Shown: positions 9,506 through 26,649 of the stretch, in pieces
Position numbering within the stretch: position 1 is the stretch's first letter
How the letters are laid out: the number at the start of each line of letters is the position of its first letter
Virus record (IMG/VR): IMGVR_UViG_2671180885_000001
Span: 1 to 27,426 of that record
DNA: 27,426 bases
Reading direction: 5' to 3' (one strand)
Source of the DNA: a virus
Lineage: Duplodnaviria; Heunggongvirae; Uroviricota; Caudoviricetes
The notes under the pieces: model-generated
What the model was told of the DNA's origin: nothing
The model's database searches: none
The model's input: the letters and a program-made list of their open reading frames with translations, nothing else
Position numbers and translations under genes: made by a program

Positions 9506-11272
9506 ATGAACACCACACTGACACCCGCAGATCTCGATCCCCGTCGGCAGGCCATGCTGCTGTACTTTCAGGGATACCGCGTCGCCCGCATTGCTGAAAT
9601 GCTGGGCGAGAAAGTTGCAACCGTTCACAGCTGGAAAAAACGCGACAAGTGGGGTGACTATGGGCCGCTGGATCAGATGCAGCTCACCACCGCCGCACGC
9701 TACTGCCAGCTCATTATGAAGGAGCACAAAGAAGGGAAAGATTTCAAAGAGATTGACCTGCTGGCGCGCCAGTCGGAACGCCACGCGCGGATCGGCAAGT
9801 TTAACAATGGCGGCAACGAAGCCGACTTAAACCCTAACGTCGCCAACCGTAACAAAGGCCCGCGCCGTCAGCCGGAAAAGAATGTTTTCACCGATGAACA
9901 GATTGAGAAGCTGGAAGAAATCTTTCATTCCTCCATGTTCAACTACCAGCGCCACTGGTGGGAAGCCGGAAAAACCAACCGCATCCGCAACCTGCTGAAG
10001 TCACGCCAGATCGGCGCGACCTTCTATTTTGCCCGTGAAGCCCTGATTGACGCCCTGCTGACCGGACGTAACCAGATTTTCCTTTCCGCCAGTAAGGCAC
10101 AGGCCCACGTCTTTAAGCAGTACATCATCGACTTCGCCAAAGAAGTGGAGGTGGAGCTGAAAGGCGATCCGATGGTGCTTCCCAACGGGGCCACACTGTA
10201 TTTCCTCGGCACCAATGCCCGCACGGCCCAGAGTTACCACGGCAACCTGTATCTGGATGAATATTTCTGGATACCGAAATTCCAGGAGCTGCGCAAAGTG
10301 GCTTCCGGTATGGCTATTCACAAGAAATGGCGACAGACCTATTTTTCCACGCCATCCAGCCTGACACACAGTGCTTATCCGTTCTGGTCCGGTGCGCTGT
10401 TCAACCGTGGGCGCAACAAAGCCGACAAGGTGGACATCGACCTGTCCCACAGCAATCTGGCCCCCGGCCTGCTGTGCGCAGACGGGCAATACCGCCAGAT
10501 AGTCACCGTGGAAGATGCGGTGCGCGGCGGCTGTAACCTGTTCGACCTCGACCAGTTGCGCATGGAGTACAGCCCGGACGAATACCAGAACCTGCTGATG
10601 TGCGAGTTCGTTGACGATCTCGCATCTGTGTTCCCGCTCAGCGAATTGCAGGCGTGCATGGTGGACAGCTGGGAAGTCTGGACCGACTTTCATGCACTGG
10701 CCCTGCGCCCGTTTGGCTGGCGCGAAGTGTGGATCGGTTATGACCCGGCAAAAGGTACGCAGAACGGCGACAGCGCCGGATGCGTGGTGGTGGCTCCGCC
10801 AGCCGTGCCGGGCGGTAAGTTTCGCATTCTTGAGCGTCACCAGTGGCGCGGGATGGACTTCCGCGCCCAGGCGGACGCCATCAAAAAACTGACCGAACAG
10901 TACAACGTGACCTATATCGGTATCGACTCAACCGGCGTCGGTCACGGGGTTTACGAGAACGTGAAAGCGTTCTTTCCTGCCGTCCGGGAGTTTGTCTACA
11001 ACCCCAACGTTAAAAACGCCCTGGTACTCAAGGCCTACGACATTATCAGCCACCGCCGTCTGGAGTTTGACGCCGGACATACCGACATTGCGCAGTCATT
11101 CATGGCAATCCGTCGCGCCACCACCGCCAGTGGCAACCGCCCGACCTACGAAGCCAGCCGCAGCGAAGAAGCCAGCCATGCCGATCTGGCATGGGCAACC
11201 ATGCACGCACTGTTTAACGAACCGCTGCAGGGCGAGTCCGCCAATACCAGCAATATTGTGGAGATTTTTTGA
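9506..11272 (+). CDS. P: Terminase large (ATPase) subunit (P2 gpP-like)
   Basis: ORF track 588 aa; ATG at 9506. Confidence 0.85.
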   Translation: MNTTLTPADLDPRRQAMLLYFQGYRVARIAEMLGEKVATVHSWKKRDKWGDYGPLDQMQLTTAARYCQLIMKEHKEGKDFKEIDLLARQSERHARIGKFNNGGNEADLNPNVANRNKGPRRQPEKNVFTDEQIEKLEEIFHSSMFNYQRHWWEAGKTNRIRNLLKSRQIGATFYFAREALIDALLTGRNQIFLSASKAQAHVFKQYIIDFAKEVEVELKGDPMVLPNGATLYFLGTNARTAQSYHGNLYLDEYFWIPKFQELRKVASGMAIHKKWRQTYFSTPSSLTHSAYPFWSGALFNRGRNKADKVDIDLSHSNLAPGLLCADGQYRQIVTVEDAVRGGCNLFDLDQLRMEYSPDEYQNLLMCEFVDDLASVFPLSELQACMVDSWEVWTDFHALALRPFGWREVWIGYDPAKGTQNGDSAGCVVVAPPAVPGGKFRILERHQWRGMDFRAQADAIKKLTEQYNVTYIGIDSTGVGHGVYENVKAFFPAVREFVYNPNVKNALVLKAYDIISHRRLEFDAGHTDIAQSFMAIRRATTASGNRPTYEASRSEEASHADLAWATMHALFNEPLQGESANTSNIVEIF

Positions 11273-12312
11273 TGAAAGAACATATCGCGCCAGGCGAAAC
11301 CGTAACTGCAGAAGAAACTAAAAAACCCGTTGCGGAGGCTTTCAGCTTTGGTGATCCCATTCCTGTACTGGACCGCCGCGAACTGCTGGACTATGTGGAA
11401 TGCGTACAGATGGATCGCTGGTATGAGCCGCCCGTCAGTTTTGACGGACTGGCACGAACCTTCCGCGCCGCCGTGCACCACAGCTCCCCGATCAGTGTTA
11501 AACGTGACATCATCAGCAGTACCTATATTCCACATCGCCTTCTCAGCCAGCAGGCATTTACCCGTTTTGTGCAGGACTATCTGGTTTTTGGTAACGCCTA
11601 TCTGGAGAAGCGCACGAATCGCTTTGGTGAAGTTATTTCGCTGGAGCCTGCACTGGCAAAATACACCCGGCGCGGGCTTGACCTTGAAACATACTGGTTT
11701 GTGCAATACAGCCTGACGACACAGCCGTATCAGTTCACAAAAGGTAACGTCTTCCACCTGATGGAGCCGGATATCAACCAGGAGATTTATGGTCTGCCGG
11801 GTTACCTTTCTGCCATTCCGTCAGCTCTGCTCAACGAATCCGCCACGCTGTTCCGCCGCAAGTATTACATTAACGGCAGCCACGCAGGCTTCATCATGTA
11901 CATGACCGACGCCGCGCAGAACCAGGAGGATGTGAACAACATCCGCAAGGCAATGAAAAGTGCTAAAGGGCCGGGCAACTTCCGCAACCTGTTTATGTAC
12001 TCGCCTAACGGCAAAAAAGATGGCATTCAGATTATCCCGTTGTCGGAAGTCGCGGCGAAGGATGAATTTCTGAACATCAAGAACGTCAGCCGCGATGACA
12101 TGATGGCGGCTCACCGCGTACCGCCGCAAATGATGGGCATCATTCCCAACAACACTGGCGGCTTTGGTGATGTGGAAAAAGCGAGCCGTGTCTTCGTCCG
12201 CAATGAACTGATGCCACTGCAAAAGCGACTGCAGGAGCTGAATGACTGGCTGAATGAAGAGGTGATCCGTTTTGAAGCTTATGACTTAGGGCTTAAGGGC
12301 AAACGAGGCTGA
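11272..12312 (+). CDS. Q: Portal protein (P2 gpQ-like)
   Basis: ORF track 11269..12312; ATG at 11272 overlaps the P stop (TGATG); P-Q order toward cos as in P2. Confidence 0.85.
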   Translation: MKEHIAPGETVTAEETKKPVAEAFSFGDPIPVLDRRELLDYVECVQMDRWYEPPVSFDGLARTFRAAVHHSSPISVKRDIISSTYIPHRLLSQQAFTRFVQDYLVFGNAYLEKRTNRFGEVISLEPALAKYTRRGLDLETYWFVQYSLTTQPYQFTKGNVFHLMEPDINQEIYGLPGYLSAIPSALLNESATLFRRKYYINGSHAGFIMYMTDAAQNQEDVNNIRKAMKSAKGPGNFRNLFMYSPNGKKDGIQIIPLSEVAAKDEFLNIKNVSRDDMMAAHRVPPQMMGIIPNNTGGFGDVEKASRVFVRNELMPLQKRLQELNDWLNEEVIRFEAYDLGLKGKRG

Positions 12313-12491: not shown

Positions 12492-12694
12492 TGCCCGCTT
12501 TGTGTAGTGGTTTTCATGCACCTGCATGACATAAGCAAAAGCCCGCCAGTTCTGGCGGGCCTGAGCAAAAACGATCCTCAAACGATCATGCGATTTCATG
12601 CGGCATAGACATGCACAACAGCACTAACGCCTCGCGTGGCTCGTTGTTCAACCTTGCGGACGGTAAAAACCAGTTTTATCGTCCGCAACGTTCG

Positions 12695-12928
12695 CTAATG
12701 TAACCAGCTGTCGTCCTCCCAGACCTGCTGCATTATTTCCATCACTCGCTTTTTATCTTCATCCAGTTTTAACCCGCTCAGCTCAACGCCGTTGGCACTG
12801 CCCTTACGGATACGAATTGCTGTTTTGGGATACAGAGGGCGCAAATTACGGTAAAGCTCGGATTCAAGGGCGTCCAGTGTAGCCTGGCTAATCTTCTGCT
12901 CTTTATCGATCATTATTTCAATGCGCAT
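12695..12928 (-). CDS. DinI-family protein
   Basis: ORF track 77 aa, MRIEIMIDKEQ...EIMQQVWEDDSWLH, typical DinI length and termini; own RBS AAGGGA. Confidence 0.75.
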   Translation of the reverse strand: MRIEIMIDKEQKISQATLDALESELYRNLRPLYPKTAIRIRKGSANGVELSGLKLDEDKKRVMEIMQQVWEDDSWLH

Positions 12929-12939
12929 ACAGATTTCCC

Positions 12940-13155
12940 TTAACTGGTTACGTCCATTGACCGGCAGTATTCATGGCTGCGGATTTTCGCCATCAGCTCG
13001 TCGGTCAATTCAGACACCCACTGGATAGCCAGCCGCTTTTCTTCGTCGCTGCACTCACTAGCCGCTACAAGCTTAATAAAAAAATCAATGCGCTGGAGCT
13101 TCAACGACTCCAAAAGATAGTCCTGCATCTTCCCTCCTATCACGACCCCGGACAT
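12940..13155 (-). CDS. Small SOS-controlled protein, possible Tum-like antirepressor (start uncertain, alternative ATG at 13128)
   Basis: ORF track 71 aa; directly downstream of a strong LexA box; position matches the 186 tum region downstream of A. Confidence 0.4.
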   Translation of the reverse strand: MSGVVIGGKMQDYLLESLKLQRIDFFIKLVAASECSDEEKRLAIQWVSELTDELMAKIRSHEYCRSMDVTS

Positions 13156-13175
13156 GCGTTAACTGTATGCATATC

Positions 13176-13195
13176 CACTGTTTATATATACAGTA
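13176..13195 (-). promoter_or_regulatory. LexA operator (SOS box) overlapping the promoter of the tum-like/dinI-like operon
   Basis: Minus strand TACTGTATATATAAACAGTG, i.e. CTGT-N8-ACAG with AT-rich spacer; overlaps a TATACT -10-like hexamer about 20 bp upstream of the ATG at 13155. Confidence 0.65.
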
Positions 13196-13289
13196 TACCC
13201 CTGATATCCAAAAGTAAAATATTTTTTATCCGTCAATGAGAACGTTCTTACGAGGGTCGTTAAGAGCATGAATTGTTAAAGCCTTGCCG

Positions 13290-15683
13290 TCAGTACCACT
13301 GGCGCCATTTGTCATCTTCCTGCAGTCGATGGTTGCGGTAAAAAATCCGTAGCCCGGCACCTGACGGAATGCTGCCACCACGCAGAAGCAAATCAATCTC
13401 AGATGCACTACCTTCAAACCCTCTGGCAGTCAGTTCTGCCTCAAGCTGCAGGCTCTGCTGCTCCGAAATACTCTGTTTGAATGCTTTTTTCCGCTTCGGT
13501 TTTACCAGTCTTAACCTGGCTGTCAGCTCCCGGCGTTCCTTCTGGCCCATATTGTGGAGGTAATCGTGCAGTTCCTGCTCATTCATGGTTTTAATATCGG
13601 GCAAATCACCCCCTGATTTGTTCAGATTTTCAACAGGGGGACAGTTATTGCCACGAGTCCAAGGGGCGCAAGCGCCCTGGTCGGCTGCCGCCTCCTGAAC
13701 GTCAACGACCTTACGAACCATTTTCCATTTCATTGCATGAGTGCAGATCTTGCCCTGTACAATGGGTGACCAGATGCCATAAATACGAATACCGTGATCG
13801 CCATAAGCGGTCGGCTCTTCGTTAATTTCATAAGCTGTTCTGATAAGGTGATATTTGCGGGGAACCAGTACGCCGCCCTGCTTCATGATGTAGGTGGCAA
13901 AACAGCCAGCATCAGCGGCAGCCAGGATGGCATCAAGGCGCGGGTCATCCAGTACCGGCGCACCTGCTTTTTTGTCACCCTGTTGCCTTGCCGCCTGACC
14001 AGCCAGCAAGCGAAGTTCACGGTACGCCTGACGCCCCGGAATACCAAAGAAGCGGAACTGCTGAACACGATGCAGAGACGCCCAGGCATTAACGTATTCG
14101 GCGTTATCACGCAGGGATTTACCCGTTTCCTTGCTGATCTCGCCAGCCAGACCACGTCCGTCAATGTTCTTACTGATGTATTTCGCGATGTAGCTTGTCG
14201 GCGTTCCTTTGCGCGGGTTTATCAGCTCAGACTTAAAGCGTGGACCAGTGTTATTACCCAGCTCCTCGCGGTCTTCACGAATGGCAAACTTACGCAACAA
14301 AGCAGTAATGGCGCGGCGATCTTTTTTGCGCATAAAACACAACAGGTGCCAGTGAACTGTACCGTCATGATGCGGCTCAGCCACCCGCACGCCATACCAG
14401 CGCAATCCGGCTTTGTGCATCGCCTTACGAAATGCAGCAAACATGCCGACCAGATAATCACTGCTTTGTCTTACCGTCGCATTTGTCCAGGTCGGGTTGG
14501 GCCTGCCGTTATTTAGCGTGGAATGGAAACGTGACGGACAGGTGATGGTGTAGAAAACGGCGCAGTCACCGCGCATTTCCGCGATAAGCTCCAGACCTTT
14601 AACACAGGCCATCATCTCATTGCGGCGATGCGCAGGGTTGCTGCTGCTGGCGTTTACCACATCCTCCATGTCCAGCGTGTCGCCGTCTTCGTTCACCAGT
14701 TCATGAGAACGGAAAAACTCCAGCGACTTACGGCGCTGCTCACGTTTATGCATCACGGCTTCATAGCTGACATAAGGAGATGCTTTTTTGCTGACCAGGC
14801 AGACAGCGCGCAACTGCTCTTCCCGCCATTCGCAACGCATCTTCCATAATTTCCGATACCACCAGTCGGCGCACAACATACGCGCCAGCGAACCCGGAAT
14901 GAGTTCATAGGGCACGGGTTTACGGCGGTTTCTTTTCCGGCGGAGTTGATCAAACGCAGGCGGGATGACATCCAGACGCAGGGTTTCCGCTGCCACCTTT
15001 TCCCATGTCTTGCGGATTTCTTCTGGCTTAACGTCATCGGTGACATACAAATCGCCACAAGCTGCATCAAGGCACATGCTCATATGCGCAGCGACAAGGG
15101 TAGACAAGCGTTTCACCTGCTCCTGACTCATTTCAGGCAGGATCAGCAGGCCGTCCAGCCCTTCATGGCTTGCCATAAAGCGAAAAGAAGTGGATAGCTG
15201 ACTGTCGCGTACATGCTCCAGTCGTTCCAGACATGGCTTAATCGTCTCACGCAAATAGCGGGAATAAGCCTTTGGCCTGCCCAGACTGCTGAAGTATTCA
15301 ATACGTTGCATCAGCGGCTTGCTGATATGGGAAGGCTGGGCGTTAACGTCTGCCAGAATGACCATGTCCGGGTTAAAACGCTGCTGCTCATGCGCCAGCT
15401 TTGCCCGGCTAATGAGCTTATCCTGCTCCATTTCGCGTTGGACAGGATCACGGGATTCATTAAAGAAATAACGCTCCCAGACCTGATCACTCAGTGCCTC
15501 GCGGCGCAGTTGTTCCTGCTCGTTATCGGCAGCGTACAGAGTGATCAGGTTTGAAAGCGCAGAAACCGGCGCAACTTCCGCCGGGTCCAGATAAGGGTTA
15601 ATGGCCTTTTTCGGGCTGTTCCATGAGAATGCTGCGGCGACCTCGTTAAAGCCGCTGCAGTTGTTCATATCATCATGGCTCAT
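13290..15683 (-). CDS. A: Replication initiation endonuclease (P2 gpA-like, rolling-circle HUH-type)
   Basis: ORF track 797 aa; VHWHLL HUH-like motif and YIAKYISK tyrosine motif; ATG overlaps Dam stop. Confidence 0.85.
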
Positions 15684-16537
15684 GCACGCACTCCGTACAT
15701 GGCAGAACTATCCACGCCACGCGAAGGATCAAATCCCACCCAGCAGCGCGCCCCGGAAACAGCAATGATTTCTGTTGCAGATTTACTCTCGCCAGCCGAC
15801 ACGCCGATGCTGCGTTTTGCCTTGATGTAGTGGTGAGTGAAATTGCGATACAGCGAACGAATCAGGGATGTGTCACTGTTAGAAACAATGACCGGATGAC
15901 CTTCAGATGATCGATGTTCAAGAACGGATGCCAGGTGATACTGGTCATCTTCAGTGAAGCCATCAGTGTGATAGCCGGAAAACGTACCGTCATACGGCGG
16001 ATCGCAATACACCACATCCCCCACCTGCAGCATCGCCAGCGTTTCATCAAAGCTTGCGCAGATAAACGTTGCACGCTGGGCTTTCTCTGCAAATGCGCGA
16101 ATTTCTTTTTCAGGGAAATACGGATTTTTATAATTACCGTACGGAATGTTGAAATGCCCGCTCTTGTTATAGCGACATAATCCACGGTAACCATGACGAT
16201 TGAGATACAGGAAATATACCGCTTTCATGAAATCAGTAATTTCAGTGGAGTAATTAAACTCCTGCCTTATGTTGTAATAAGCCACCTCCCTGTTTGCTTC
16301 CTCAAATAAAGCTCTGGCACGAGATATAAACGCCTCGCAATCAGCAGCAACCTTTTTATAGAGGTTGATTAAATCAGGATTAATATCCGCAACAAGATAG
16401 CTGGGGTAATCCGTCTCCATCATCACAGCACAGGAACCCGCGAAAGGTTCAACCAGTCGCGGGCCAGCAGGAAGGTGTTTTTTCAGTTCGGACATAATGG
16501 CGATTTTATTTCCCGCCCATTTCAGGATGGTGCTCAT
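15680..16537 (-). CDS. DNA adenine methyltransferase (Dam family, N6-adenine, probable GATC specificity)
   Basis: ORF track 15680..16597; internal ATG at 16537 ([11 protein letters not shown]) with GGAGG upstream; motifs FAGSCAV (AdoMet binding) and DPPY (catalytic); ATGA overlaps with both neighbours. Confidence 0.8.
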
Positions 16538-16761
16538 ACAGCACCTCCGTTGTAATGTTTGCCTTTCAGCTCTGCAATTTCCTGGCAGGTAATGCAAAGC
16601 TGCACACCCGGAATGGCACGGCGGTGTGCTGGCGGAATTGGCGCTTCACACTCAATGCAAAGCACGCGAGACACGCCCGGTGTTTTGGCACGGGCAGCAC
16701 GGATATGGCGCTGGCGTTCTTCTTCAACGCGCTGCTGTACGAGATCCATTGCATCAGCCAT
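16534..16761 (-). CDS. TraR/DksA-family C4 zinc-finger protein
   Basis: ORF track 75 aa; CIEC...CITC four-cysteine pattern near C-terminus. Confidence 0.65.
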   Translation of the reverse strand: MADAMDLVQQRVEEERQRHIRAARAKTPGVSRVLCIECEAPIPPAHRRAIPGVQLCITCQEIAELKGKHYNGGAV

Positions 16762-18478: not shown

Positions 18479-19111
18479 ATGATACAGGTAAAGGTTGGAG
18501 AGAATACAGGGGGAAGAGAGGCTATCCATAGACTAATGGCAGCCTATGATTTCAAGTCCAGACAGCAACTTTGCGATCACTTAGGCGCATCAAAAAGCAC
18601 CATGGCAAACAGATACTTAAGAGATAGTTTTCCTGCAGAGTGGGTGATTCAGTGCGCCTTGGAAACAGGAGTTTCTTTACTGTGGCTAACCACCGGACAG
18701 GGGGAGCCAGGTCCAAACATTGAACCTAAAAAAAATATCAATTCCGTGAACTCCAGCAAGGTTGTACCTCTTTCTGAACTAGTATCTCCTGAAATTGACA
18801 AGGCGACTCTCAACGGTGGTTTATTGGTCGATGCTGGAAAAGCAATCATTGATAGCAGCATACTCCCCTCAGACTCAAGCAACCTACTGCTGGTGACTAC
18901 TTCTGGTGATTCTTATTTAATAGATCGCAACCAAACACCACCAGTAAATGGTATGTGGTTAGTCGATATCGACGGGATAAAAAGCATCGTTAAATTGACT
19001 CGACTCCCGGGAAACAAATTAGTAGTGCATCAGGATGATTCATCGTTTGAGTGCGGTCTGGATGACATTGAGGTAGTAGGCCGCGCACTGAAAATCATTA
19101 AGAGCCTTTGA
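18479..19111 (+). CDS. cI: Immunity repressor, 186 CI-like (N-terminal HTH, C-terminal oligomerisation domain)
   Basis: ORF track 210 aa; far longer than P2 C (about 99 aa) and close to 186 CI (about 190 aa); immediately upstream of int. Confidence 0.65.
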   Translation: MIQVKVGENTGGREAIHRLMAAYDFKSRQQLCDHLGASKSTMANRYLRDSFPAEWVIQCALETGVSLLWLTTGQGEPGPNIEPKKNINSVNSSKVVPLSELVSPEIDKATLNGGLLVDAGKAIIDSSILPSDSSNLLLVTTSGDSYLIDRNQTPPVNGMWLVDIDGIKSIVKLTRLPGNKLVVHQDDSSFECGLDDIEVVGRALKIIKSL

Positions 19112-20142: not shown

Positions 20143-21363
20143 ATGGATATTAAAAACAAAGTCAATAAAGAAAAGTTATTTGAGAACCATTTAAACTCAT
20201 TATTAAAACAAGTCATTTCCGAACCAAAATTAAACCCTCCACTTATAGTACATAGAGATATAATAAGTGACTTCACTGAACGTTGCGATAAGTATCTAAA
20301 AACAATAATTAAATACAAAAGCAACAATAAAGATGGGATGCCGAATTTTGATGAATTAATCAGCAAAGCTAAGAACATTCAAAATGGAATAACATTATCA
20401 CTTGAAAGTTTTTTATCCGGTGATATCAAGTCAGCATATGACCACTTTGATAAAACATTCTCTGATAACTCAACAATCCAACACATACATCGCATCACTA
20501 CTCCACTCAGTAGCATTTGCAATCATAAAAAACCATTATTTCGAGTTAGAAAAAGTGAAAATCCTCTAACGTCAAGAGATGAAATTTTCCATATTCCATT
20601 CTCCAATAGACATTTTGTTAGTGCACAAAGATATTCAGTCGCTGGCTTACCATGTTTATATCTTGGCACTTCTGTTTATGTTTGTTGGCAGGAGATGGAA
20701 AAACCAGATTTTGACAAGCTTTTTATTTCATCATTTACTACCAGTGAAACTGAATATAAAGTCTTAAACTTTGCATCACAGCTTTTGTTACATCCCTCAC
20801 CAAATTACGCTGACGAAAATAAACTAGCCGAAACAAATAGAGTAAAGGCCTCTTATCTCATTTTCTGGCCTTTAATTATTGCATGTAATTATTTAAAAAA
20901 TCATCGTTCTGCAACATTCATACAAGAGTACATTATCCCTAATTTGTTGATGCAATGGATTAGTAGAAAAACTTACTCGAAAATTGTCGGTGTAGCTTAC
21001 TTCTCTACAAAAATGCCTAATTCACGATTAAGTAACCGCTCAATAAATGTTGTATTTCCACCCAAAGTTACATATGAACAAACGGTAAAACAAAATTTTT
21101 GCCCTAAACTCTCCACATTATTCGACTTTACGCCACCTATTTCGTGGCAGGTCTTAAAAACATTAGATCATTCATCAATAACAGAAAATTCAATAGAATT
21201 GATGATGTCAAAGAGATATCTTCAAAGTCAAGAAAAACTGTCTGGAATTAAAAACTTCGAAGAGGACATTGTAAAACTATACCCCTTAACTGATTTTTAC
21301 AAACTCGAAAGAAGTATTGATATGCTATTTGAATATAAAAAGATAGATAACCCCATACTATAA
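20143..21363 (+). CDS. AT-rich cargo protein of unknown function with RES-domain-like motifs
   Basis: ORF track 406 aa; markedly lower G+C by eye than all flanking phage genes; blocks LFRVRK, RYSVAGLPCLYLGTSVYVCWQEM and GVAYFSTK resemble the Arg, Glu and Ser blocks of RES-domain toxins (from memory, not searched). Confidence 0.55.
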   Translation: MDIKNKVNKEKLFENHLNSLLKQVISEPKLNPPLIVHRDIISDFTERCDKYLKTIIKYKSNNKDGMPNFDELISKAKNIQNGITLSLESFLSGDIKSAYDHFDKTFSDNSTIQHIHRITTPLSSICNHKKPLFRVRKSENPLTSRDEIFHIPFSNRHFVSAQRYSVAGLPCLYLGTSVYVCWQEMEKPDFDKLFISSFTTSETEYKVLNFASQLLLHPSPNYADENKLAETNRVKASYLIFWPLIIACNYLKNHRSATFIQEYIIPNLLMQWISRKTYSKIVGVAYFSTKMPNSRLSNRSINVVFPPKVTYEQTVKQNFCPKLSTLFDFTPPISWQVLKTLDHSSITENSIELMMSKRYLQSQEKLSGIKNFEEDIVKLYPLTDFYKLERSIDMLFEYKKIDNPIL

Positions 21364-21684: not shown

Positions 21685-24600
21685 TCAGAACGACCAGTTC
21701 ACACCAGCTACCGCGTTCCACGGGGATTCCACACCGGCACTATGGCTATACCCCACCCCAAGATGCCCGCTTAACGTACTGCTGAATGAGGCTTTAATAC
21801 CTGCCTGGTATATTCCACGTCTGCCCGACAAATAATTGACGAAATTACCGTCACTATTCACTTTCACCCGGTTATCATCGACAAATTCTTTGCGCACAGC
21901 CGCCTTCAGCCACGGCTCAACTTCCATACCGTTCCCCAGACGCATGTTGTAACTCAGCGTTGCGCCCAGTTCACGATATATACTGCGGGTATCGACTGAT
22001 TTCGATTTCATGCCATTGGATAAATGATATTCGGGGTTATCAGCGGTGAACCCCGTTAACGATGCATACGGCGTCAGGTTCCAGTTACCATCGGTAAATC
22101 GCATCCCGGTTTCAATGTGACCGCCCAGCCCGTTGCTGTGGTAACTGCCATTGGCGGCTCCACCGCTGCTCATTTTACCTGCTACGTTACTTTTAAAACG
22201 GTTCAGCTTCACGACACCGTCCAGATAGAAACCACTTTCATGTTCCCAACTGGCATAGCCGCCCAGAGAATAACTGCCCACACTGCCATATCCTCCGCGA
22301 TCAAAACCGATATGTGAATGGGAATAGCCCATAAAAGCGCCTAGCGTGGTAATTCCTTCAGGAATATCATTACGGCTGTCGATCCCCACTGTCATTCCGG
22401 TCAGCGTCTGCTCAAACCCGGCACCCGCATCGGTGGTGACATTATTACGGGTGTTATACGTCGCCCCCCAGACATTATTGTTGTGTGGACTCGCTTTCAT
22501 TATGTTCAACCGCTCGCGAATACTGTTTAGCTCAGCATCAAATACCAACGGTAATGTTGCTGCCATATTGAGTACGGCTGCCGTAGAAGGCGTAATGCGT
22601 TTCTCCGGAACGGGTGTCGGCGTTGGATCGGGAGTAGGGTCTGGTTTTGGATTTGGGTCTGGCTTTGGATCGGGTTTTGGGTCTGGCTTTGGATTTGGGA
22701 TGGGGTCCGGGTTGGGTTTGACATCATTGGTCAGGTTCCAGTTGCTGTTGCCGTCACTTTTCAGGACATACTCATAGGTCCCAAGATCAACGAAACCGCC
22801 GGTATTGCCCAGCGTAAACGAAGCATCCCCTCCCCCTGTTTTCACCAGCGTCATCGCGTCGTCAGACTGTGGGCTGACGCCGGTATCCTGAACAAAGATT
22901 TTAAAATTACCAGTGGCGTTGTTGTTGACGACCAGTTGATCGCCCCGGGAGCCTGCAACGTTGGTATGCAGGTAGAAATTACCGCTACCGGAAAGTTCAT
23001 TGGTTGTCAGCGTATTGTAGATACCGTTAGTTGTGGCAGGCGCTGCTGTTTGTGCTGACAAATAAACATCACCGTCGTTGAGTAGCAAACTGTTTACTCT
23101 ATATTCGCAGTTGCTGGTACCTGCACAGGAATTATTGCTGTTAAGCCAGACACTGCCCCGGCTGGCAGCCGTCAGGTCGGCAAGCGTGGTATCGACGCCA
23201 TTTCCCAGAGTCAATGTCGCGCTATCGGTAATCCGGACCGCCCCTTCGAGTTTAACTGGCGTAACATTATCCCGTGGCGTCATTAACGACAGGCTTCCTG
23301 TCGCGCCACTGACCGATGCATCCGCCAGCGTACCTGCGTAGACGATTGCCGTACCGCCAGCGACCTGGAGATCTTCTGCCCGGGCCAGAGCCTGAAACTC
23401 ATCTTTTGACCGCCCAAGGGTATATTGCCCGCCAGAGTTAACCTTTGTGGCGGAGTCCTGACCCAGGTTTTGCATTGCCCCACCCTTGCCAACCGTGGAG
23501 TCGCGAGCTTCGGTACCTGCTAATACCAATAAATTACCGCCATTTTCCAGCAACATATTGGTCGCTAAATTGCCGGAAATGGAAAAAGTACCGTACTGGT
23601 GAGTACCGCTGATTTCAATACCGTTAGCCGTGCTCGTCTGGAGAGCGGCACCGCTGTTCTGGACGATATCTGTCGCTTTGCCATTATCGTTGACTGTCAG
23701 CGTACCGCCTTCATTGATCTTTGTTTTTATTGCCTCTCCGTTAGCTGAAACTGTTTGTATTCCGCCGTCGTTAATTGTTGTCTCATTCGCCACACCCTCG
23801 ACAATTTGTTCACCGCCGGTGAGCGTCGTGCCTGTCGCAGTGGCTTTTGTTTTGACGATCTCCCGTCCGCCCATATTGACCTGTGTTTTGTCAGAAGAGG
23901 TGTCTGACTCCACGGTTAACACGCCGCCATTTGCCAGCAGGATATTGTTCGCCGCACCCTGCTCGATGCTGAACGCGACGCCATCCGCGCGTGTTCCTGT
24001 GACCCGCGTCGCCCTGGTGGTTGCAACCAAAGCGCCCTGGCTACTCTGCTGTATCCCCGTTGCGCTGCCTTTCTCCCGCACATCGAGTGTGCCGCCGTCA
24101 TTAAGCACCGAGTTTTCAGCCAGACCGCCCTCATTAACTACCTGTGAACCCCCATTAATAATGGAACCTTCCGCTGTCCCGTTTGCCATAATTTGTTGTA
24201 GGCCAGAGACGATATCGGTATTGATTGCCTTACCATAATTCTGAACGGTTTGCGTGCCACCATTGATGTGTGTTTTCTCTGTTGACCCACCATCAACAAT
24301 TTGTTCACCACTTTCGATATTTGCTTCAGTGGCTAAACCATATACCGTTTGCTTGCCACCTTTGATATTTGCTTTATCAGAAGTGGCACTGGCATATATT
24401 GTTTGGGTGCCAGCACTATTGAGTACAGTGCCAACATCTTTTCCATAAACATCCATTTTGCCGTTGGCATTAATAATCGTGTCAACTGCCCGGGAACCAG
24501 TGACGACTGTTAATGAGCCAGCGTTTTCCAGCACTACATTTTTAGCTTCTGAATTCCTGATGTAGAAAGCATCACCATAACTGTTGGTTCCTTCGATAAG

Positions 24601-26265
24601 TGTTCCGGAGGTCGTGGAAGCAATTAATGCGCCGCCGGATTGTTGCTCAACATGCTTAGCCTCACCACCGTCCTGAACCTCCAGAACGCCGCCATTATTA
24701 AGTCTGGTGCTATCTGTTTTAGCCTCCTTCTGGACAATCAGCTTACCGCCAGTATCAATGGTAGTATTTTTCGCCGAGGTTTTAGCCACTACCGTCAGTT
24801 CGCCGGTATTTTCCAGCACAACATAATTAGCCTCCCCTCCGGTAATAGTGAAGTGAGAGAGCTTGTTGTATCCTTCGATATCAGTCCCTGCACCCGTGTT
24901 GGCAACTAAAGCACTGCCCGTCTCCTGGTTAACCCCATGTGCAATACCGCCGGTATAGACAATCAGCGAGCCTCCGGCGCTAATATTGCTGCCAATTGCC
25001 GTACCATCTTTCTCAACAACCTGCCGGCTCCCGGAGGATATAATTGTTGTGTCAGCTTTCCCGCCGCTTTTGATATTTTGCGTTCCGCTGTTGATATTGG
25101 TGCCTGTGGCTATGCCATAATTATTAATATTCTGTGTGCCACCATTAATTATGGTATTTGTCGCGTTTCCTGCAACATCCATAACCCCGCCATTATCTAT
25201 TCGGGTCGCATCAGCTTTAGCATTGGTTAAAACTGACATTGTTCCTTTATCTTTAATAATCGTCTTGTTTGCCGAACCATATGCGTTTATGTCTAAATGA
25301 CCACCGTTTTCCAGCAACACATTGTCTGCCACGTGATTGTGGATGGAGAATGCACCTTCACTATTCGTACCGCTCACCGTCGTACCGTTAGTGTTAGTTT
25401 TTAAAATTGCACCATCGTGCTGGGTAACATTTGTTGCCGTACCACCACTAACATCAAGCACGCCACCAGAATAAACTTCAATAACATCCGAGGTGCTGGT
25501 GTTATCAACAATTTGCGTGCCACCAGAATAGATATGCGTATTTTTTGCCGTTGACTTACTATTCAGAGACTGAGTTCCGCCTTCAATCGTCGTGTCCAGC
25601 GCACGGCTCTCATATACTCTTTGCTCACCGCCATTTTTAATGGTTGTTGTTTCTACTGTGCTCTGTTCAACATACTGTCGACCACCATTTATGGTTGTGT
25701 TCGTTGCCAGACTTCCTTGTACTACGTCCTGAGAGCCAGACTTATTTATCGTTGTACCATCAGCATGCCCTTGAACTTTTACTATCTGGCTACCACCATC
25801 AATGAGTATTCCATTCGCACTCCCTCCCTCTACGCGTGAAGCACCGCCCTTAATTGTCGTTCCATTGCTGATACCCCCTTTATAAACGTCCTGATTGCCA
25901 CTCTCGATTGTCGTACCTGTGGAAATACCCCCGTCATGAATTGACTGTCTGCCACCGTTAATGGTTGTATTATTAGCCTGCCCCACAAAATTGTTATGAC
26001 TTCCTATATCTTGATATCCACCAGATTCAATAAGACTTCCATTAGATACCCCGCCATGAACATTCTGCTGGCCATGGTTGATAATATGAGTGTTATTTGT
26101 TGTACCTCGTTCATCCACTTTTTGGTTGCCATCTACAGTCTCATCGTTTACCACACCAATAACATTAGTAGTGAAGGCAGCCATCCCGGGCGGGGCATAT
26201 ATCAAGGCAGATATCAATAAGGAAAGTACTGAGCGGCGACAATAATAGGGACTGGTCCTGTTCAT
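21685..26265 (-). CDS. ypjA: AIDA-I-type autotransporter adhesin (YpjA-like): signal peptide, long beta-helical passenger, Pro-rich linker, C-terminal beta-barrel
   Basis: ORF track 21685..26394; start at 26265 (MNRTSPYYCRRSVL) has GAGGA about 8 nt upstream and gives about 1526 aa; repetitive GG/T/N-rich passenger, PNPDPKPDP linker, C-terminus ending NWSF; chromosomal context beside ssrA island end matches K-12 ypjA. Confidence 0.75.
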   Translation of the reverse strand: MNRTSPYYCRRSVLSLLISALIYAPPGMAAFTTNVIGVVNDETVDGNQKVDERGTTNNTHIINHGQQNVHGGVSNGSLIESGGYQDIGSHNNFVGQANNTTINGGRQSIHDGGISTGTTIESGNQDVYKGGISNGTTIKGGASRVEGGSANGILIDGGSQIVKVQGHADGTTINKSGSQDVVQGSLATNTTINGGRQYVEQSTVETTTIKNGGEQRVYESRALDTTIEGGTQSLNSKSTAKNTHIYSGGTQIVDNTSTSDVIEVYSGGVLDVSGGTATNVTQHDGAILKTNTNGTTVSGTNSEGAFSIHNHVADNVLLENGGHLDINAYGSANKTIIKDKGTMSVLTNAKADATRIDNGGVMDVAGNATNTIINGGTQNINNYGIATGTNINSGTQNIKSGGKADTTIISSGSRQVVEKDGTAIGSNISAGGSLIVYTGGIAHGVNQETGSALVANTGAGTDIEGYNKLSHFTITGGEANYVVLENTGELTVVAKTSAKNTTIDTGGKLIVQKEAKTDSTRLNNGGVLEVQDGGEAKHVEQQSGGALIASTTSGTLIEGTNSYGDAFYIRNSEAKNVVLENAGSLTVVTGSRAVDTIINANGKMDVYGKDVGTVLNSAGTQTIYASATSDKANIKGGKQTVYGLATEANIESGEQIVDGGSTEKTHINGGTQTVQNYGKAINTDIVSGLQQIMANGTAEGSIINGGSQVVNEGGLAENSVLNDGGTLDVREKGSATGIQQSSQGALVATTRATRVTGTRADGVAFSIEQGAANNILLANGGVLTVESDTSSDKTQVNMGGREIVKTKATATGTTLTGGEQIVEGVANETTINDGGIQTVSANGEAIKTKINEGGTLTVNDNGKATDIVQNSGAALQTSTANGIEISGTHQYGTFSISGNLATNMLLENGGNLLVLAGTEARDSTVGKGGAMQNLGQDSATKVNSGGQYTLGRSKDEFQALARAEDLQVAGGTAIVYAGTLADASVSGATGSLSLMTPRDNVTPVKLEGAVRITDSATLTLGNGVDTTLADLTAASRGSVWLNSNNSCAGTSNCEYRVNSLLLNDGDVYLSAQTAAPATTNGIYNTLTTNELSGSGNFYLHTNVAGSRGDQLVVNNNATGNFKIFVQDTGVSPQSDDAMTLVKTGGGDASFTLGNTGGFVDLGTYEYVLKSDGNSNWNLTNDVKPNPDPIPNPKPDPKPDPKPDPNPKPDPTPDPTPTPVPEKRITPSTAAVLNMAATLPLVFDAELNSIRERLNIMKASPHNNNVWGATYNTRNNVTTDAGAGFEQTLTGMTVGIDSRNDIPEGITTLGAFMGYSHSHIGFDRGGYGSVGSYSLGGYASWEHESGFYLDGVVKLNRFKSNVAGKMSSGGAANGSYHSNGLGGHIETGMRFTDGNWNLTPYASLTGFTADNPEYHLSNGMKSKSVDTRSIYRELGATLSYNMRLGNGMEVEPWLKAAVRKEFVDDNRVKVNSDGNFVNYLSGRRGIYQAGIKASFSSTLSGHLGVGYSHSAGVESPWNAVAGVNWSF
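22610..22720 (-). repeat. In-frame tandem repeat encoding the (P-D/N-P-K/T) linker of the autotransporter
   Basis: Reiterated GGGTCTGGCTTTGGAT-like units on the plus strand, about 6 bp periodicity. Confidence 0.5.
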
Positions 26266-26649
26266 AAATTTCATCCTCTGAAAAGTGAATACTGAGTAGC
26301 GTTTAAGCGACCTTAGCTTTGCTGCAACATCAGCCCACAGGCACCAGACCAGGGGATTCATCCTGAAGAGACAGCGCAAGTGTATTGTGTTCACCGCTCA
26401 TCAAAGACATCATGATGAAATGATGATATTCCGCATAAGAATGAGGCATTTTTTAAACGCAGTGCGCTGAAGTGTGGTTGGATAAAAAAGTCAATCCATT
26501 CAGGAAATACGGGCGTATTCTTTTCTTTCGACAATGAGGCCGTTGGCAAAATAAAATGATTTACATAATCGTTTCTGATGAATATCTTCTGCTCACATAA
26601 AAATCACACAATAACTTTGAGATCGCAGATTGTTTTACTTTTACAGCAT

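What the first reader, a model, noticed from the sequence alone, without database searches (positions are those of the whole stretch)
13176..13195. Near-consensus LexA box controlling a tum-like/DinI-like pair: 186-style SOS induction wired into a P2-like structural genome
CTGTATATATAAACAG (minus strand) is within one base of the idealised LexA operator and overlaps a -10-like hexamer about 20 bp upstream of a small ORF followed by a DinI-family gene. P2 itself is not SOS-inducible; 186 is, through LexA-repressed Tum antirepressor. Together with the 186-length CI this predicts a UV/mitomycin-inducible prophage. The two ORFs together are about the size I recall for 186 Tum (about 146 aa, with a DinI-like C-terminal half), so this may be a split or ancestral two-gene form.
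Basis: partly seen in the sequence, partly recalled or inferred. Interest (0 to 1): 0.55.

Follow-up and report, generated by a model that had tools for sequence, protein, structure and literature searches.

The report
LexA-controlled tumA-tumB prophage induction switch
This is the DNA-damage "trigger" of a P2-like E. coli prophage: a LexA-repressed promoter driving a small antirepressor gene and a DinI-like gene. It is real, but it is the known two-gene form of the phage 186 tum system.

Summary
CACTGTTTATATATACAGTA at 13176-13195 differs from the 20-bp LexA consensus at 2 positions (1 in the 16-bp core), and no shuffle of the window reproduces it. On the minus strand it precedes a 62-aa ORF (12940-13128), a 77-aa DinI-family ORF (12695-12928) and a terminator. 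It lies between the P2 gpA-type replicase and the portal gene of a P2-like prophage that carries a 186-type CI/Apl/CII region.

PSP3 annotates this split as tumA/tumB, and Fels-2 has it too. The small ORF is 100% identical to SopEPhi orf10. It is 90% identical to E. coli HS ECHS_RS04495, the "tum" gene whose in-frame deletion abolishes mitomycin C induction of prophage DuoHS; lexA(Ind-) does the same. Profile searches link the ORF to the N-terminal half of 186 Tum. The module occurs in 1202 of 5426 complete E. coli genomes.

Corrections: the ORF starts at ATG 13128, so it is 62 aa, not 71. The operator is a pair of overlapping LexA boxes (13161-13195) built like colicin operators, whereas 186 and PSP3 have one box. 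The pair is conserved in 57 of 64 distinct relatives' promoters. This last point is the only possibly new detail. Low interest.

The parts
13176..13195 (-). LexA box 1, the strong box: TACTGTATATATAAACAGTG. It overlaps the putative -10 and the transcription start.
   Evidence: 2 mismatches to the 20-bp consensus; 0 of 100 shuffles match. Conserved in relatives.
13161..13180 (-). LexA box 2, the weak box: CAGTGGATATGCATACAGTT. It is offset 15 bp from box 1. With box 1 it forms a colicin-type double operator (core 13163-13193).
   Evidence: The composite pattern CTGT-N8-MCAGTG-N9-ACAG occurs once in the window and in 0 of 100 shuffles. It is present at every phrog_698-type tumA promoter fetched and at ColE1-family colicin promoters. 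It is kept in 57 of 64 distinct upstream regions of TumA loci chosen by protein similarity.
13190..13218 (-). Putative promoter PtumA (p95 equivalent): -35 TTTACT (13213-13218), 17-bp spacer, -10 TACTGT (13190-13195). Alternative -10: TATACT (13192-13197).
   Evidence: By position, analogous to the annotated 186 p95 -35/-10, where the -10 is the first 6 nt of the LexA box. TTTACA/TTTACT is conserved at this spacing in relatives. Not detected by the consensus scan. Inferred.
13133..13138 (-). Shine-Dalgarno sequence AGGAGG of tumA
   Evidence: Read directly from the sequence. Invariant in relatives.
12940..13128 (-). tumA: 62-aa antirepressor gene (Tum N-terminal-domain homologue), including the stop codon
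   Evidence: phrog_698 E=2.8e-36. The N-terminal 70 aa of 186 Tum hit phrog_698 at E=5.9e-6, and this ORF hits the PSP3-TumA family phrog_1993 at E=1.4e-3. 100% identical to SopEPhi orf10 and 90% to DuoHS tum ECHS_RS04495. Synonymous changes dominate, e.g. 19 synonymous against 2 non-synonymous versus ST13-OXA48phi12.1.
12695..12928 (-). tumB: 77-aa DinI-family gene. Its start codon lies 11 nt after the tumA stop.
   Evidence: Pfam DinI E=8.8e-24. 41% identical to 186 Tum residues 71-145. 91% identical to PSP3 TumB. Matches E. coli DinI structure 1GHH at E=6.5e-9.
12539..12562 (-). Intrinsic terminator closing the two-gene SOS operon
   Evidence: 10-bp stem with 7 G-C pairs followed by a T-rich tail.
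18479..19111 (+). 186-type CI immunity repressor, the presumed target of TumA
   Evidence: Pfam Phage_CI_repr plus Phage_CI_C and no S24 peptidase domain. 33% identical to 186 CI. Matches 186 CI structures 2FJR and 2FKD.
13290..15683 (-). P2 gpA-type replication endonuclease, the upstream neighbour (context)
   Evidence: Pfam Phage_GPA E=3.9e-128.

Best explanation
This is the SOS-induction operon of a Fels-2/SopEPhi/DuoHS-type P2-like prophage with 186-type immunity, integrated next to ypjA in E. coli.

In the lysogen, LexA sits on two overlapping operators (13161-13195) that cover the -10 and the start site of the promoter, and this silences a two-gene transcript. DNA damage activates RecA, LexA cleaves itself, and the operon tumA-tumB is transcribed up to the terminator at 12539-12562.

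TumA (62 aa) is the antirepressor. It binds the 186-type CI repressor (18479-19111) and stops it binding its operators. That frees the early lytic promoter, so Apl, CII and replication gene A are expressed.

TumB (77 aa, DinI-like) most likely binds RecA filaments and tunes the SOS signal rather than acting on CI.

The arrangement is the unfused, two-gene form of the single 146-aa Tum protein of phage 186.

Shown here: the sequence features, the homologies and their conservation. Shown by others in orthologues: LexA dependence and the requirement for tum. Inferred: a direct TumA-CI contact in this phage, occupancy of box 2 by a second LexA dimer, and the role of TumB.
For: Operator: the LexA 20-mer has 2 mismatches and no shuffle matches it. 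The double-box pattern is unique in the window, with 0 of 100 shuffles. It is conserved in 57 of 64 distinct promoters of TumA loci picked by protein similarity, while the -35 spacer and the leader vary.

Genes: DinI Pfam E=8.8e-24, and 41% identity to the C-terminal half of 186 Tum. TumA belongs to phrog_698, which the N-terminal 70 aa of 186 Tum hit at E=5.9e-6. Both proteins also hit phrog_8554 (4.4e-8 and 3.4e-12) and phrog_1993, the PSP3 TumA family.

Position: the genes sit in the same place (between gene A and cos/portal) as 186 p95-tum, PSP3 tumA/tumB and Fels-2 STM2728/STM2726.1.

Repressor: CI is 186-type and has no S24 peptidase domain, so induction needs an antirepressor.

Experiments in orthologues:
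- An in-frame deletion of ECHS_RS04495 (62 aa, 90% identical to the window's TumA), or lexA(Ind-), abolishes mitomycin C induction of DuoHS (PMC12055606).
- Fels-2 STM2726-STM2727-STM2728 behaves as one operon, and STM2727 is induced 5.5- to 14.8-fold by the mutagen MX (PMC2225428).
- 186 Tum is a LexA-controlled antirepressor of CI; Fels-2 and PSP3 have tum split in two, with the upstream PSP3 gene carrying the antirepressor activity (PMC3121763).

Functional split: TumB is 91% identical between PSP3 and the window, while their TumA proteins cannot be aligned by BLAST and their CIs are 36% identical. This fits TumA tracking the phage CI and TumB tracking a host target.
Against: - Pairwise BLASTP finds no similarity between the window's TumA and 186 Tum or PSP3 TumA. 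The homology rests on profile matches and a 17-20% identity alignment.
- No consensus sigma-70 promoter is detected.
- Nothing was measured for this particular prophage. Only about 20 kb of it lies in the window, so its intactness cannot be judged.
- The window's CI is only 44% identical to the DuoHS CI, so transferring the DuoHS genetics assumes that TumA recognises a conserved CI surface.
- Box 2 has 6 mismatches to the consensus and a poor left half-site (GTGG). It might not bind LexA by itself.
Confidence: 0.9

Rival explanations
1. Only box 1 is a working LexA operator, as in 186 p95. The adjacent 'box 2' is conserved for another reason, for example as part of the transcribed leader or as a site for another protein, and does not bind a second LexA dimer.
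For: Box 2 has 6 mismatches to the 20-bp consensus, and its left half is GTGG rather than CTGT. 186, PSP3 and ESSI-2 manage with a single box.
Against: ColE1-family colicin promoters have the same architecture: 15-bp offset, shared CAGTG, and a perfect ATACAGT right half. SopEPhi shares the 21-nt stretch CAGTGGTTATATATACAGTAT with one of them exactly. Colicin operators of this design are reported to bind two LexA dimers (PMC2994835). The half-site flanks are kept while the inner 8 bp vary across relatives.
Confidence: 0.3
2. The LexA-controlled unit is essentially an SOS-regulated DinI-like 'moron' serving the host. The small upstream ORF has no role in induction, and the prophage is non-inducible or is induced some other way.
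For: PGAP and most phage records call the small ORF 'hypothetical protein'. It has no Pfam or NCBIfam family.
Against: Deleting the 90%-identical orthologue alone, with the tumB ribosome-binding site left intact, abolishes induction in DuoHS. The ORF shows profile homology to the Tum N-terminal half and to TumA. It is under strong purifying selection. ESSI-2 keeps a tumA-like gene behind a LexA box with no dinI gene at all. CI lacks an autocleavage domain.
Confidence: 0.04
3. The module is intact but the prophage is a defective remnant. LexA derepression would then only produce TumA and TumB, possibly cross-inducing other resident P2-like prophages, without yielding phage from this element.
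For: The window covers only part of the prophage. The related BTP5 expresses tum, yet no infectious phage was detected (PMC7067206). E. coli genomes carry up to 4 copies of the module.
Against: Every gene in the roughly 20 kb visible is full-length and in the canonical order: tail and capsid genes, P, Q, tumB, tumA, A, dam, cII, apl, cI, int. The region is about 93% identical to isolated phages.
Confidence: 0.1
4. The LexA-like sequence is a chance AT-rich palindrome in an intergenic region.
For: The intergenic region is AT-rich (46% GC).
Against: 0 of 100 shuffles reach 3 or fewer mismatches. The site is conserved at the same place in dozens of diverged relatives. The orthologous operon is damage-induced.
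Confidence: 0.01

Closest known systems
Phage 186 SOS operon (p95-tum-orf97), with Tum as antirepressor of CI
   Same: A LexA box overlaps the -10 of a promoter placed after replication gene A. The C-terminal DinI-like part is 41% identical to the window's TumB. The N-terminal part is a profile-level homologue of the window's TumA. The target is a 186-type CI, and 186-like CII and Fil are present.
   Different: 186 fuses both parts into one 146-aa protein and makes the DinI-like part separately from internal starts. It has a single LexA box at -38. It carries a third gene, orf97, which the window lacks. Here the terminator follows tumB directly.
PSP3 tumA/tumB and Fels-2 STM2728/STM2726.1 (split tum)
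   Same: Two-gene layout with a short gap between the genes, in the same genomic position. TumB is 87-91% identical. Fels-2 TumA is 87-90% identical and has the same double LexA operator. The split and the antirepressor role of the upstream gene are stated in PMC3121763.
   Different: PSP3 TumA belongs to the 186-like subfamily (phrog_1993) and has a single LexA box. Fels-2 has an extra downstream gene (STM2726) and a CI 58% identical to the window's.
DuoHS prophage of E. coli HS (tum = ECHS_RS04495) and SopEPhi orf10/orf11
   Same: TumA is 90% identical in DuoHS and 100% identical in SopEPhi. The operator, Shine-Dalgarno sequence and gene order are the same. DuoHS gives the direct genetic proof: delta-tum and lexA(Ind-) are both non-inducible.
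   Different: The immunity differs: CI is 44% identical to the DuoHS CI and 85% to the SopEPhi CI. The integration site differs: beside ypjA here, near rcdA/ybjL in E. coli HS.
Colicin operators with two overlapping SOS boxes (ColE1-family promoters)
   Same: Identical operator geometry and nearly identical sequence. The colicin promoter reads GCTGTATATAAAACCAGTGGTTATATATACAGTA; the window reads TACTGTATATATAAACAGTGGATATGCATACAGTT. In both cases LexA controls a gene whose untimely expression kills the cell (PMC2994835).
   Different: The regulated product is an antirepressor, not a toxin or lysis operon. LexA binding to both boxes has not been tested for the phage promoter.
Gifsy/Fels-1 LexA-controlled antirepressors (GfoA, GftA, FsoA) and N15 AntC
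   Same: The logic is the same: a LexA-repressed small antirepressor lying outside the immunity region inactivates a non-cleavable repressor. The Gifsy operons also contain a dinI homologue (PMC3121763).
   Different: The antirepressor and repressor families are unrelated. The gene order is reversed (dinI first) in Gifsy.

Membership tests
186-type Tum SOS-induction module (LexA-repressed antirepressor of a 186-type CI) | LexA operator overlapping the promoter immediately upstream of the antirepressor gene | tested here: met
   The 20-mer has 2 mismatches and 0 of 100 shuffles match it. It occupies the same position relative to the -10 as the annotated 186 p95.
186-type Tum SOS-induction module (LexA-repressed antirepressor of a 186-type CI) | Location between replication gene A and the cos/portal end of a P2-like genome, transcribed in the same direction as A | tested here: met
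   gpA lies at 13290-15683(-), tumA and tumB at 12695-13128(-), and portal Q at 11269-12312(+). The order is the same in 186, PSP3, Fels-2 and DuoHS.
186-type Tum SOS-induction module (LexA-repressed antirepressor of a 186-type CI) | Antirepressor homologous to the N-terminal half of 186 Tum / PSP3 TumA | tested here: met
   Met at profile level only. 186 Tum residues 1-70 hit phrog_698 at E=5.9e-6. The window ORF hits phrog_1993 at E=1.4e-3 and phrog_8554 at E=4.4e-8. Pairwise BLASTP is negative. The alignment shows a shared C-x7-A motif.
186-type Tum SOS-induction module (LexA-repressed antirepressor of a 186-type CI) | DinI-like domain or gene directly downstream of the antirepressor part | tested here: met
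   Pfam DinI E=8.8e-24. 41% identical to Tum residues 71-145 and 91% identical to PSP3 TumB.
186-type Tum SOS-induction module (LexA-repressed antirepressor of a 186-type CI) | Cognate 186-type CI repressor without a RecA-stimulated autocleavage (S24) domain | tested here: met
   Only Phage_CI_repr and Phage_CI_C were found. 33% identical to 186 CI. Matches 2FJR and 2FKD.
186-type Tum SOS-induction module (LexA-repressed antirepressor of a 186-type CI) | LexA-dependent expression, and antirepressor activity required for prophage induction | not testable with these tools
   Shown only in orthologues: DuoHS delta-tum and lexA(Ind-), Fels-2 operon induction by MX, and 186.
DinI family (RecA-filament-binding SOS modulators) | Match to Pfam PF06183 above the gathering score | tested here: met
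   84.1 bits against a cut-off of 24.2. E. coli DinI structure 1GHH matched at E=6.5e-9.
DinI family (RecA-filament-binding SOS modulators) | Equivalence to host DinI (NCBIfam NF007893 equivalog cut-off) | tested here: not met
   51.7 bits against a cut-off of 111. It is a phage DinI-like paralogue (TumB type), not the host dinI gene.
Colicin-type double overlapping SOS operator | Two LexA 16-mers offset by 15 bp and sharing one base, in the form CTGT-N8-(A/C)CAG|TGG-N8-ACAG | tested here: met
   The window core is at 13163-13193. The same pattern lies upstream of ColE1-family colicin genes. It is conserved in 57 of 64 relatives' promoters.
Colicin-type double overlapping SOS operator | Binding of two LexA dimers, giving tighter or delayed derepression | not testable with these tools
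   Reported for colicin operators (PMC2994835). No data for tumA promoters were found in the searchable literature.
Lambda-type induction by RecA-stimulated repressor autocleavage (considered as a rival) | Repressor carries a LexA/S24 peptidase domain | tested here: not met
   The CI Pfam scan lists only the two 186-CI domains.

The most novel reading that the evidence does not exclude
Fels-2/SopEPhi/DuoHS-type P2-like prophages, including this one, may gate their antirepressor with a colicin-style pair of overlapping LexA boxes instead of the single box of 186 and PSP3. Two LexA dimers binding cooperatively would set a higher damage threshold and a later time of induction.

In addition, their TumA is almost invariant (87-100% identity) across phages whose CI C-terminal domains have diverged to about 30% identity, while the CI N-terminal DNA-binding domain stays at 63% or more. 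One TumA may therefore inactivate many heteroimmune CIs through the N-terminal domain, so that co-resident P2-like prophages induce together.

I found neither point in the literature I could search. Bunny et al. 2002 could not be read, so prior description is not excluded.
Probability: 0.45. Interest if true: 0.35.

Novelty: already known. Interest (0 to 1): 0.15.

Why it matters
The module explains why this very common class of P2-like prophages responds to UV, mitomycin C or quinolones even though P2 itself does not. It occurs in 1202 of 5426 complete E. coli genomes, and also in Salmonella, Klebsiella, Yersinia and Cronobacter phages. That bears on the spread of cargo such as sopE.

Most genome records still label the antirepressor gene 'hypothetical protein', so annotating it as tumA would be useful.

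The only part that may add knowledge is the colicin-like double LexA operator together with the near-universal TumA sequence. These suggest a thresholded induction that could be shared between prophages.

Tried and rejected
- Pairwise BLASTP of the small ORF against 186 Tum and PSP3 TumA gave no alignment. Homology had to be established through PHROG profiles.
- The sigma-70 consensus scan found no promoter. The promoter was placed by analogy with 186 p95.
- Pfam, NCBIfam and PADLOC have no family for TumA, and PDB has no relative.
- Bunny et al. 2002 (PMC151935) and Gillor et al. 2008 (PMC2729051) are not held. I could not check whether they describe the double box at Fels-2 tum. Colicin operator sequences were taken from plasmid records instead.
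- A literature search for 'tumA/tumB' returned only irrelevant papers.
- The pattern-based IMG/VR scan for the double box (92 of 119 hits lie upstream of TumA homologues) is biased by how the hits were selected. I did not use it as evidence of conservation. I replaced it with a protein-based sample.
- The second CTGT-N8-ACAG in the window (12820-12835) lies inside tumB, has a G-rich centre and 8 mismatches to the 20-mer by eye. I rejected it as an operator.
- I did not run structure prediction of TumA. It would not discriminate between the explanations, and the tool cannot model a TumA-CI complex.
- I did not use the large protein-database searches. The phage, plasmid and E. coli collections answered the question.

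Full report
**What is in the sequence**

The reported 20-mer is present at 13176-13195. On the minus strand it reads TACTGTATATATAAACAGTG. It differs from the LexA consensus TACTGTATATATATACAGTA at two positions, one of them inside the 16-bp core. It is the only site in the 27.4-kb window within three mismatches, and none of 100 dinucleotide-preserving shuffles produced such a site.

On the minus strand the order is as follows:
- the end of a P2 gpA-type replicase (13290-15683, Pfam Phage_GPA E=3.9e-128);
- the LexA site;
- a small ORF;
- a 77-aa ORF (12695-12928) that matches Pfam DinI (E=8.8e-24);
- an intrinsic terminator (12539-12562);
- the portal gene Q and terminase gene P, on the opposite strand.

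The rest of the window is a P2-like late region, followed by a 186-like early region. The early region holds a Dam methylase, a DksA/TraR-like protein, DUF2732, DUF5347, Fil, CII (70% identical to 186 CII), an Apl-like gene, CI and integrase. Beyond the integrase lie an AT-rich cargo gene and the E. coli ypjA autotransporter gene.

**Corrections to the anatomy**

The longest reading frame of the small ORF starts at ATG 13155 and gives 71 aa, but that codon has no ribosome-binding site. It also lies in a 6-bp insertion that Fels-2 and DuoHS lack. ATG 13128 is preceded by AGGAGG (13133-13138) and gives a 62-aa protein. That length and start are the ones conserved in all relatives. Across relatives, synonymous codon changes far outnumber non-synonymous ones. 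Against Klebsiella phage ST13-OXA48phi12.1, for example, there are 19 synonymous and 2 non-synonymous differences at 87% nucleotide identity. It is a real, constrained gene.

**What the two genes are**

The DinI-like protein is 41% identical to residues 71-145 of 186 Tum and 91% identical to PSP3 TumB. It matches the E. coli DinI structure (1GHH, E=6.5e-9). It falls below NCBI's cut-off for the host DinI equivalog, so it is a phage paralogue.

The 62-aa protein shows no pairwise BLAST similarity to 186 Tum or PSP3 TumA. Profiles do link them:
- it belongs to phrog_698 (E=2.8e-36);
- the N-terminal 70 residues of 186 Tum hit phrog_698 at E=5.9e-6;
- both proteins hit phrog_8554 (4.4e-8 and 3.4e-12);
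- the window protein hits phrog_1993, the family of PSP3 TumA, at E=1.4e-3.

A four-way alignment shows the shared cysteine and a downstream invariant alanine within a conserved [LI]-A-[LI] stretch. The 186 record annotates p95, its LexA site, tum and internally initiated DinI-like products. PSP3 annotates tumA ('similar to 5' end 186 tum; UV induction of prophage') and tumB. Fels-2 has the same pair, STM2728 and STM2726.1.

**The repressor**

CI (18479-19111) has the two Pfam domains defined on 186 CI. It is 33% identical to 186 CI over its whole length, matches the 186 CI crystal structures, and has no S24 autocleavage domain. Induction therefore has to go through an antirepressor, as in 186.

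**What is already published**

Lemire et al. (PMC3121763) make three relevant statements. Tum is a LexA-controlled antirepressor whose second half resembles DinI. [quoted passage not shown] In PSP3 the upstream gene carries the antirepressor activity; this last point is a personal communication cited through Bunny et al. 2002.

[quoted passage not shown] That deletion, and separately lexA(Ind-), each abolish mitomycin C induction. ECHS_RS04495 is the 62-aa 'hypothetical protein' just upstream of the DinI-like gene. It is 90% identical to the window's protein. The deletion primers match the same Shine-Dalgarno/ATG junction and leave the tumB start region intact.

In Salmonella TA100, STM2726-STM2727-STM2728 behaves as one operon, and STM2727 is induced 5.5- to 14.8-fold by the mutagen MX (PMC2225428). 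A tum homologue is also noted in prophage BTP5 (PMC7067206).

The window's TumA is 100% identical to orf10 of SopEPhi. The 741-bp module is found in 1202 of 5426 complete E. coli genomes and in more than 590 IMG/VR contigs.

**Mechanism**

Four steps are proposed:
1. LexA represses the promoter.
2. DNA damage, acting through RecA, removes LexA.
3. TumA sequesters CI, and lytic transcription starts.
4. TumB probably acts on RecA filaments.

Steps 1 to 3 are shown in 186 and, genetically, in DuoHS. For this element they are inferred from orthology. Step 4 is inferred from DinI homology and from the 186 annotation 'modulates SOS induction'.

A comparative pattern supports this division of labour. 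TumB is 91% identical between PSP3 and the window. Their TumA proteins cannot be aligned by BLAST, and their CIs are 36% identical. This is what one expects if TumA follows the phage repressor and TumB follows a conserved host protein. Cronobacter phage ESSI-2 has a tumA-like gene behind a LexA box and no dinI-like gene within the 9.8-kb stretch fetched. The antirepressor is thus a self-sufficient module. The fused 186 protein still makes a free DinI-like product from an internal start. It is therefore more likely the derived state than the ancestral one, but this is inference.

**An added detail: a double operator**

Immediately downstream of the strong box lies a second LexA-like box, CAGTGGATATGCATACAGTT (13161-13180). 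It is offset by 15 bp and shares CAGTG with box 1. It has a perfect right half-site and a poor left half. The composite CTGT-N8-MCAGTG-N9-ACAG occurs once in the window and in none of 100 shuffles.

Among the 15 loci held at that point, the composite is found only at the tumA promoters of the phrog_698-type phages and at two colicin promoters. It is absent from 186, PSP3, ESSI-2 and 45 kb of E. coli HS chromosome.

A BLAST search of the operator against plasmids hit small mobilizable Col plasmids. There the match lies about 45 bp upstream of a ColE1-family pore-forming colicin gene and reads GCTGTATATAAAACCAGTGGTTATATATACAGTA. [quoted passage not shown]

I also took 80 IMG/VR loci chosen by TumA protein similarity alone. 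Of their 64 distinct upstream sequences, 57 keep the exact double-box pattern, and most of the rest differ from it by a single base or a single-base insertion. The -35 spacer, the inner 8 bp of box 2 and the leader all vary.

186, PSP3 and ESSI-2 have one box, 38-40 bp upstream of the start codon. I found no description of this double operator for tum promoters in the searchable literature. Bunny et al. 2002 could not be read.

**A second side observation: conserved TumA, divergent CI**

TumA of this type stays 87-100% identical across phages with very different CIs. In those phages the CI C-terminal domain falls to 30-35% identity with the window's, while the CI N-terminal DNA-binding domain stays at 63-100%. 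This is compatible with TumA contacting the N-terminal domain and working across immunity types. Overall relatedness confounds the pattern, however, because gpA and CII are also 84-98% identical within this group. It remains a hypothesis.

**Verdict**

It is the known tumA-tumB (split Tum) SOS-induction operon of Fels-2/SopEPhi/DuoHS-type P2-like prophages. Novelty: already known. Interest: low. The colicin-like double LexA operator is a modest refinement worth a footprinting experiment.

Noticed in passing
window 13161-13195 (minus strand): The tumA operator is a pair of overlapping LexA boxes offset by 15 bp. It is nearly identical in design and sequence to ColE1-family colicin operators. 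186, PSP3 and ESSI-2 have a single box. The pair is conserved in 57 of 64 distinct promoters of TumA loci.
   Followed up: yes
window 12940-13128 against 18479-19111; loci L005-L013: TumA is 87-100% identical across phages whose CI is only 36-58% identical overall (C-terminal domain down to 30%, N-terminal domain at least 63%). This suggests one antirepressor could act on several immunity types. E. coli genomes carry up to 4 copies of the module.
   Followed up: partly
window 12539-12694: This SOS operon stops after tumB: a terminator follows about 130 bp downstream. 186 (orf97), Fels-2 (STM2726) and DuoHS carry a further gene of about 680-730 bp downstream in the same orientation.
   Followed up: partly
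L012 (Cronobacter phage ESSI-2) 1641-1796: A tumA-like gene (44% identical) sits behind a single LexA box, is not annotated in the record, and has no DinI-like gene in the locus. The antirepressor therefore occurs without tumB.
   Followed up: partly
window 12820-12835: A second exact CTGT-N8-ACAG (CTGTTTTGGGATACAG) lies inside the tumB coding sequence, over the codons for LYPKT. Its centre is G-rich and it fits the 20-mer consensus poorly. It is probably fortuitous.
   Followed up: partly
window 20143-21363 (+): A 406-aa ORF lies just beyond the integrase gene in a 32-35% GC island. It has no Pfam or PADLOC family. The related phage Cartapus annotates the ORF in the same position, next to int, as 'putative RES protein, NAD+ binding domain', and SopEPhi has an 'orfY' at that position. 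It is a candidate moron or defence gene.
   Followed up: partly
window 21685-26394 (-) and flank: The host flank is the E. coli adhesin-like autotransporter gene ypjA/ehaD, so the prophage sits in the ypjA region of an E. coli chromosome. ARAGORN finds no tRNA gene in the window.
   Followed up: partly
window 13219-13250 (minus strand) and relatives: A conserved TTGAC(A/G)GATAAAAAA...TTTTAC element lies upstream of the tumA promoter, between the end of gene A and the -35. It contains an AT-rich inverted repeat (GTAAAAAAACGTTTTAC in DuoHS). Its function is unknown; it could be a weak terminator for the A transcript or a protein-binding site.
   Followed up: no
L040, L110/L131, L036/L052, L047, L133 (IMG/VR): AT-rich colicin-type double LexA boxes also occur in other viral contigs, upstream of unrelated ORFs (for example 225-aa and 267-aa proteins) or of no ORF of 40 aa or more. 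These may be other LexA-gated phage genes.
   Followed up: no
window 15680-16597 (-): A Dam-type orphan N6-adenine methyltransferase lies directly upstream of gene A and overlaps its start. The listed TTG start is probably too far upstream, because homology begins near residue 20.
   Followed up: no
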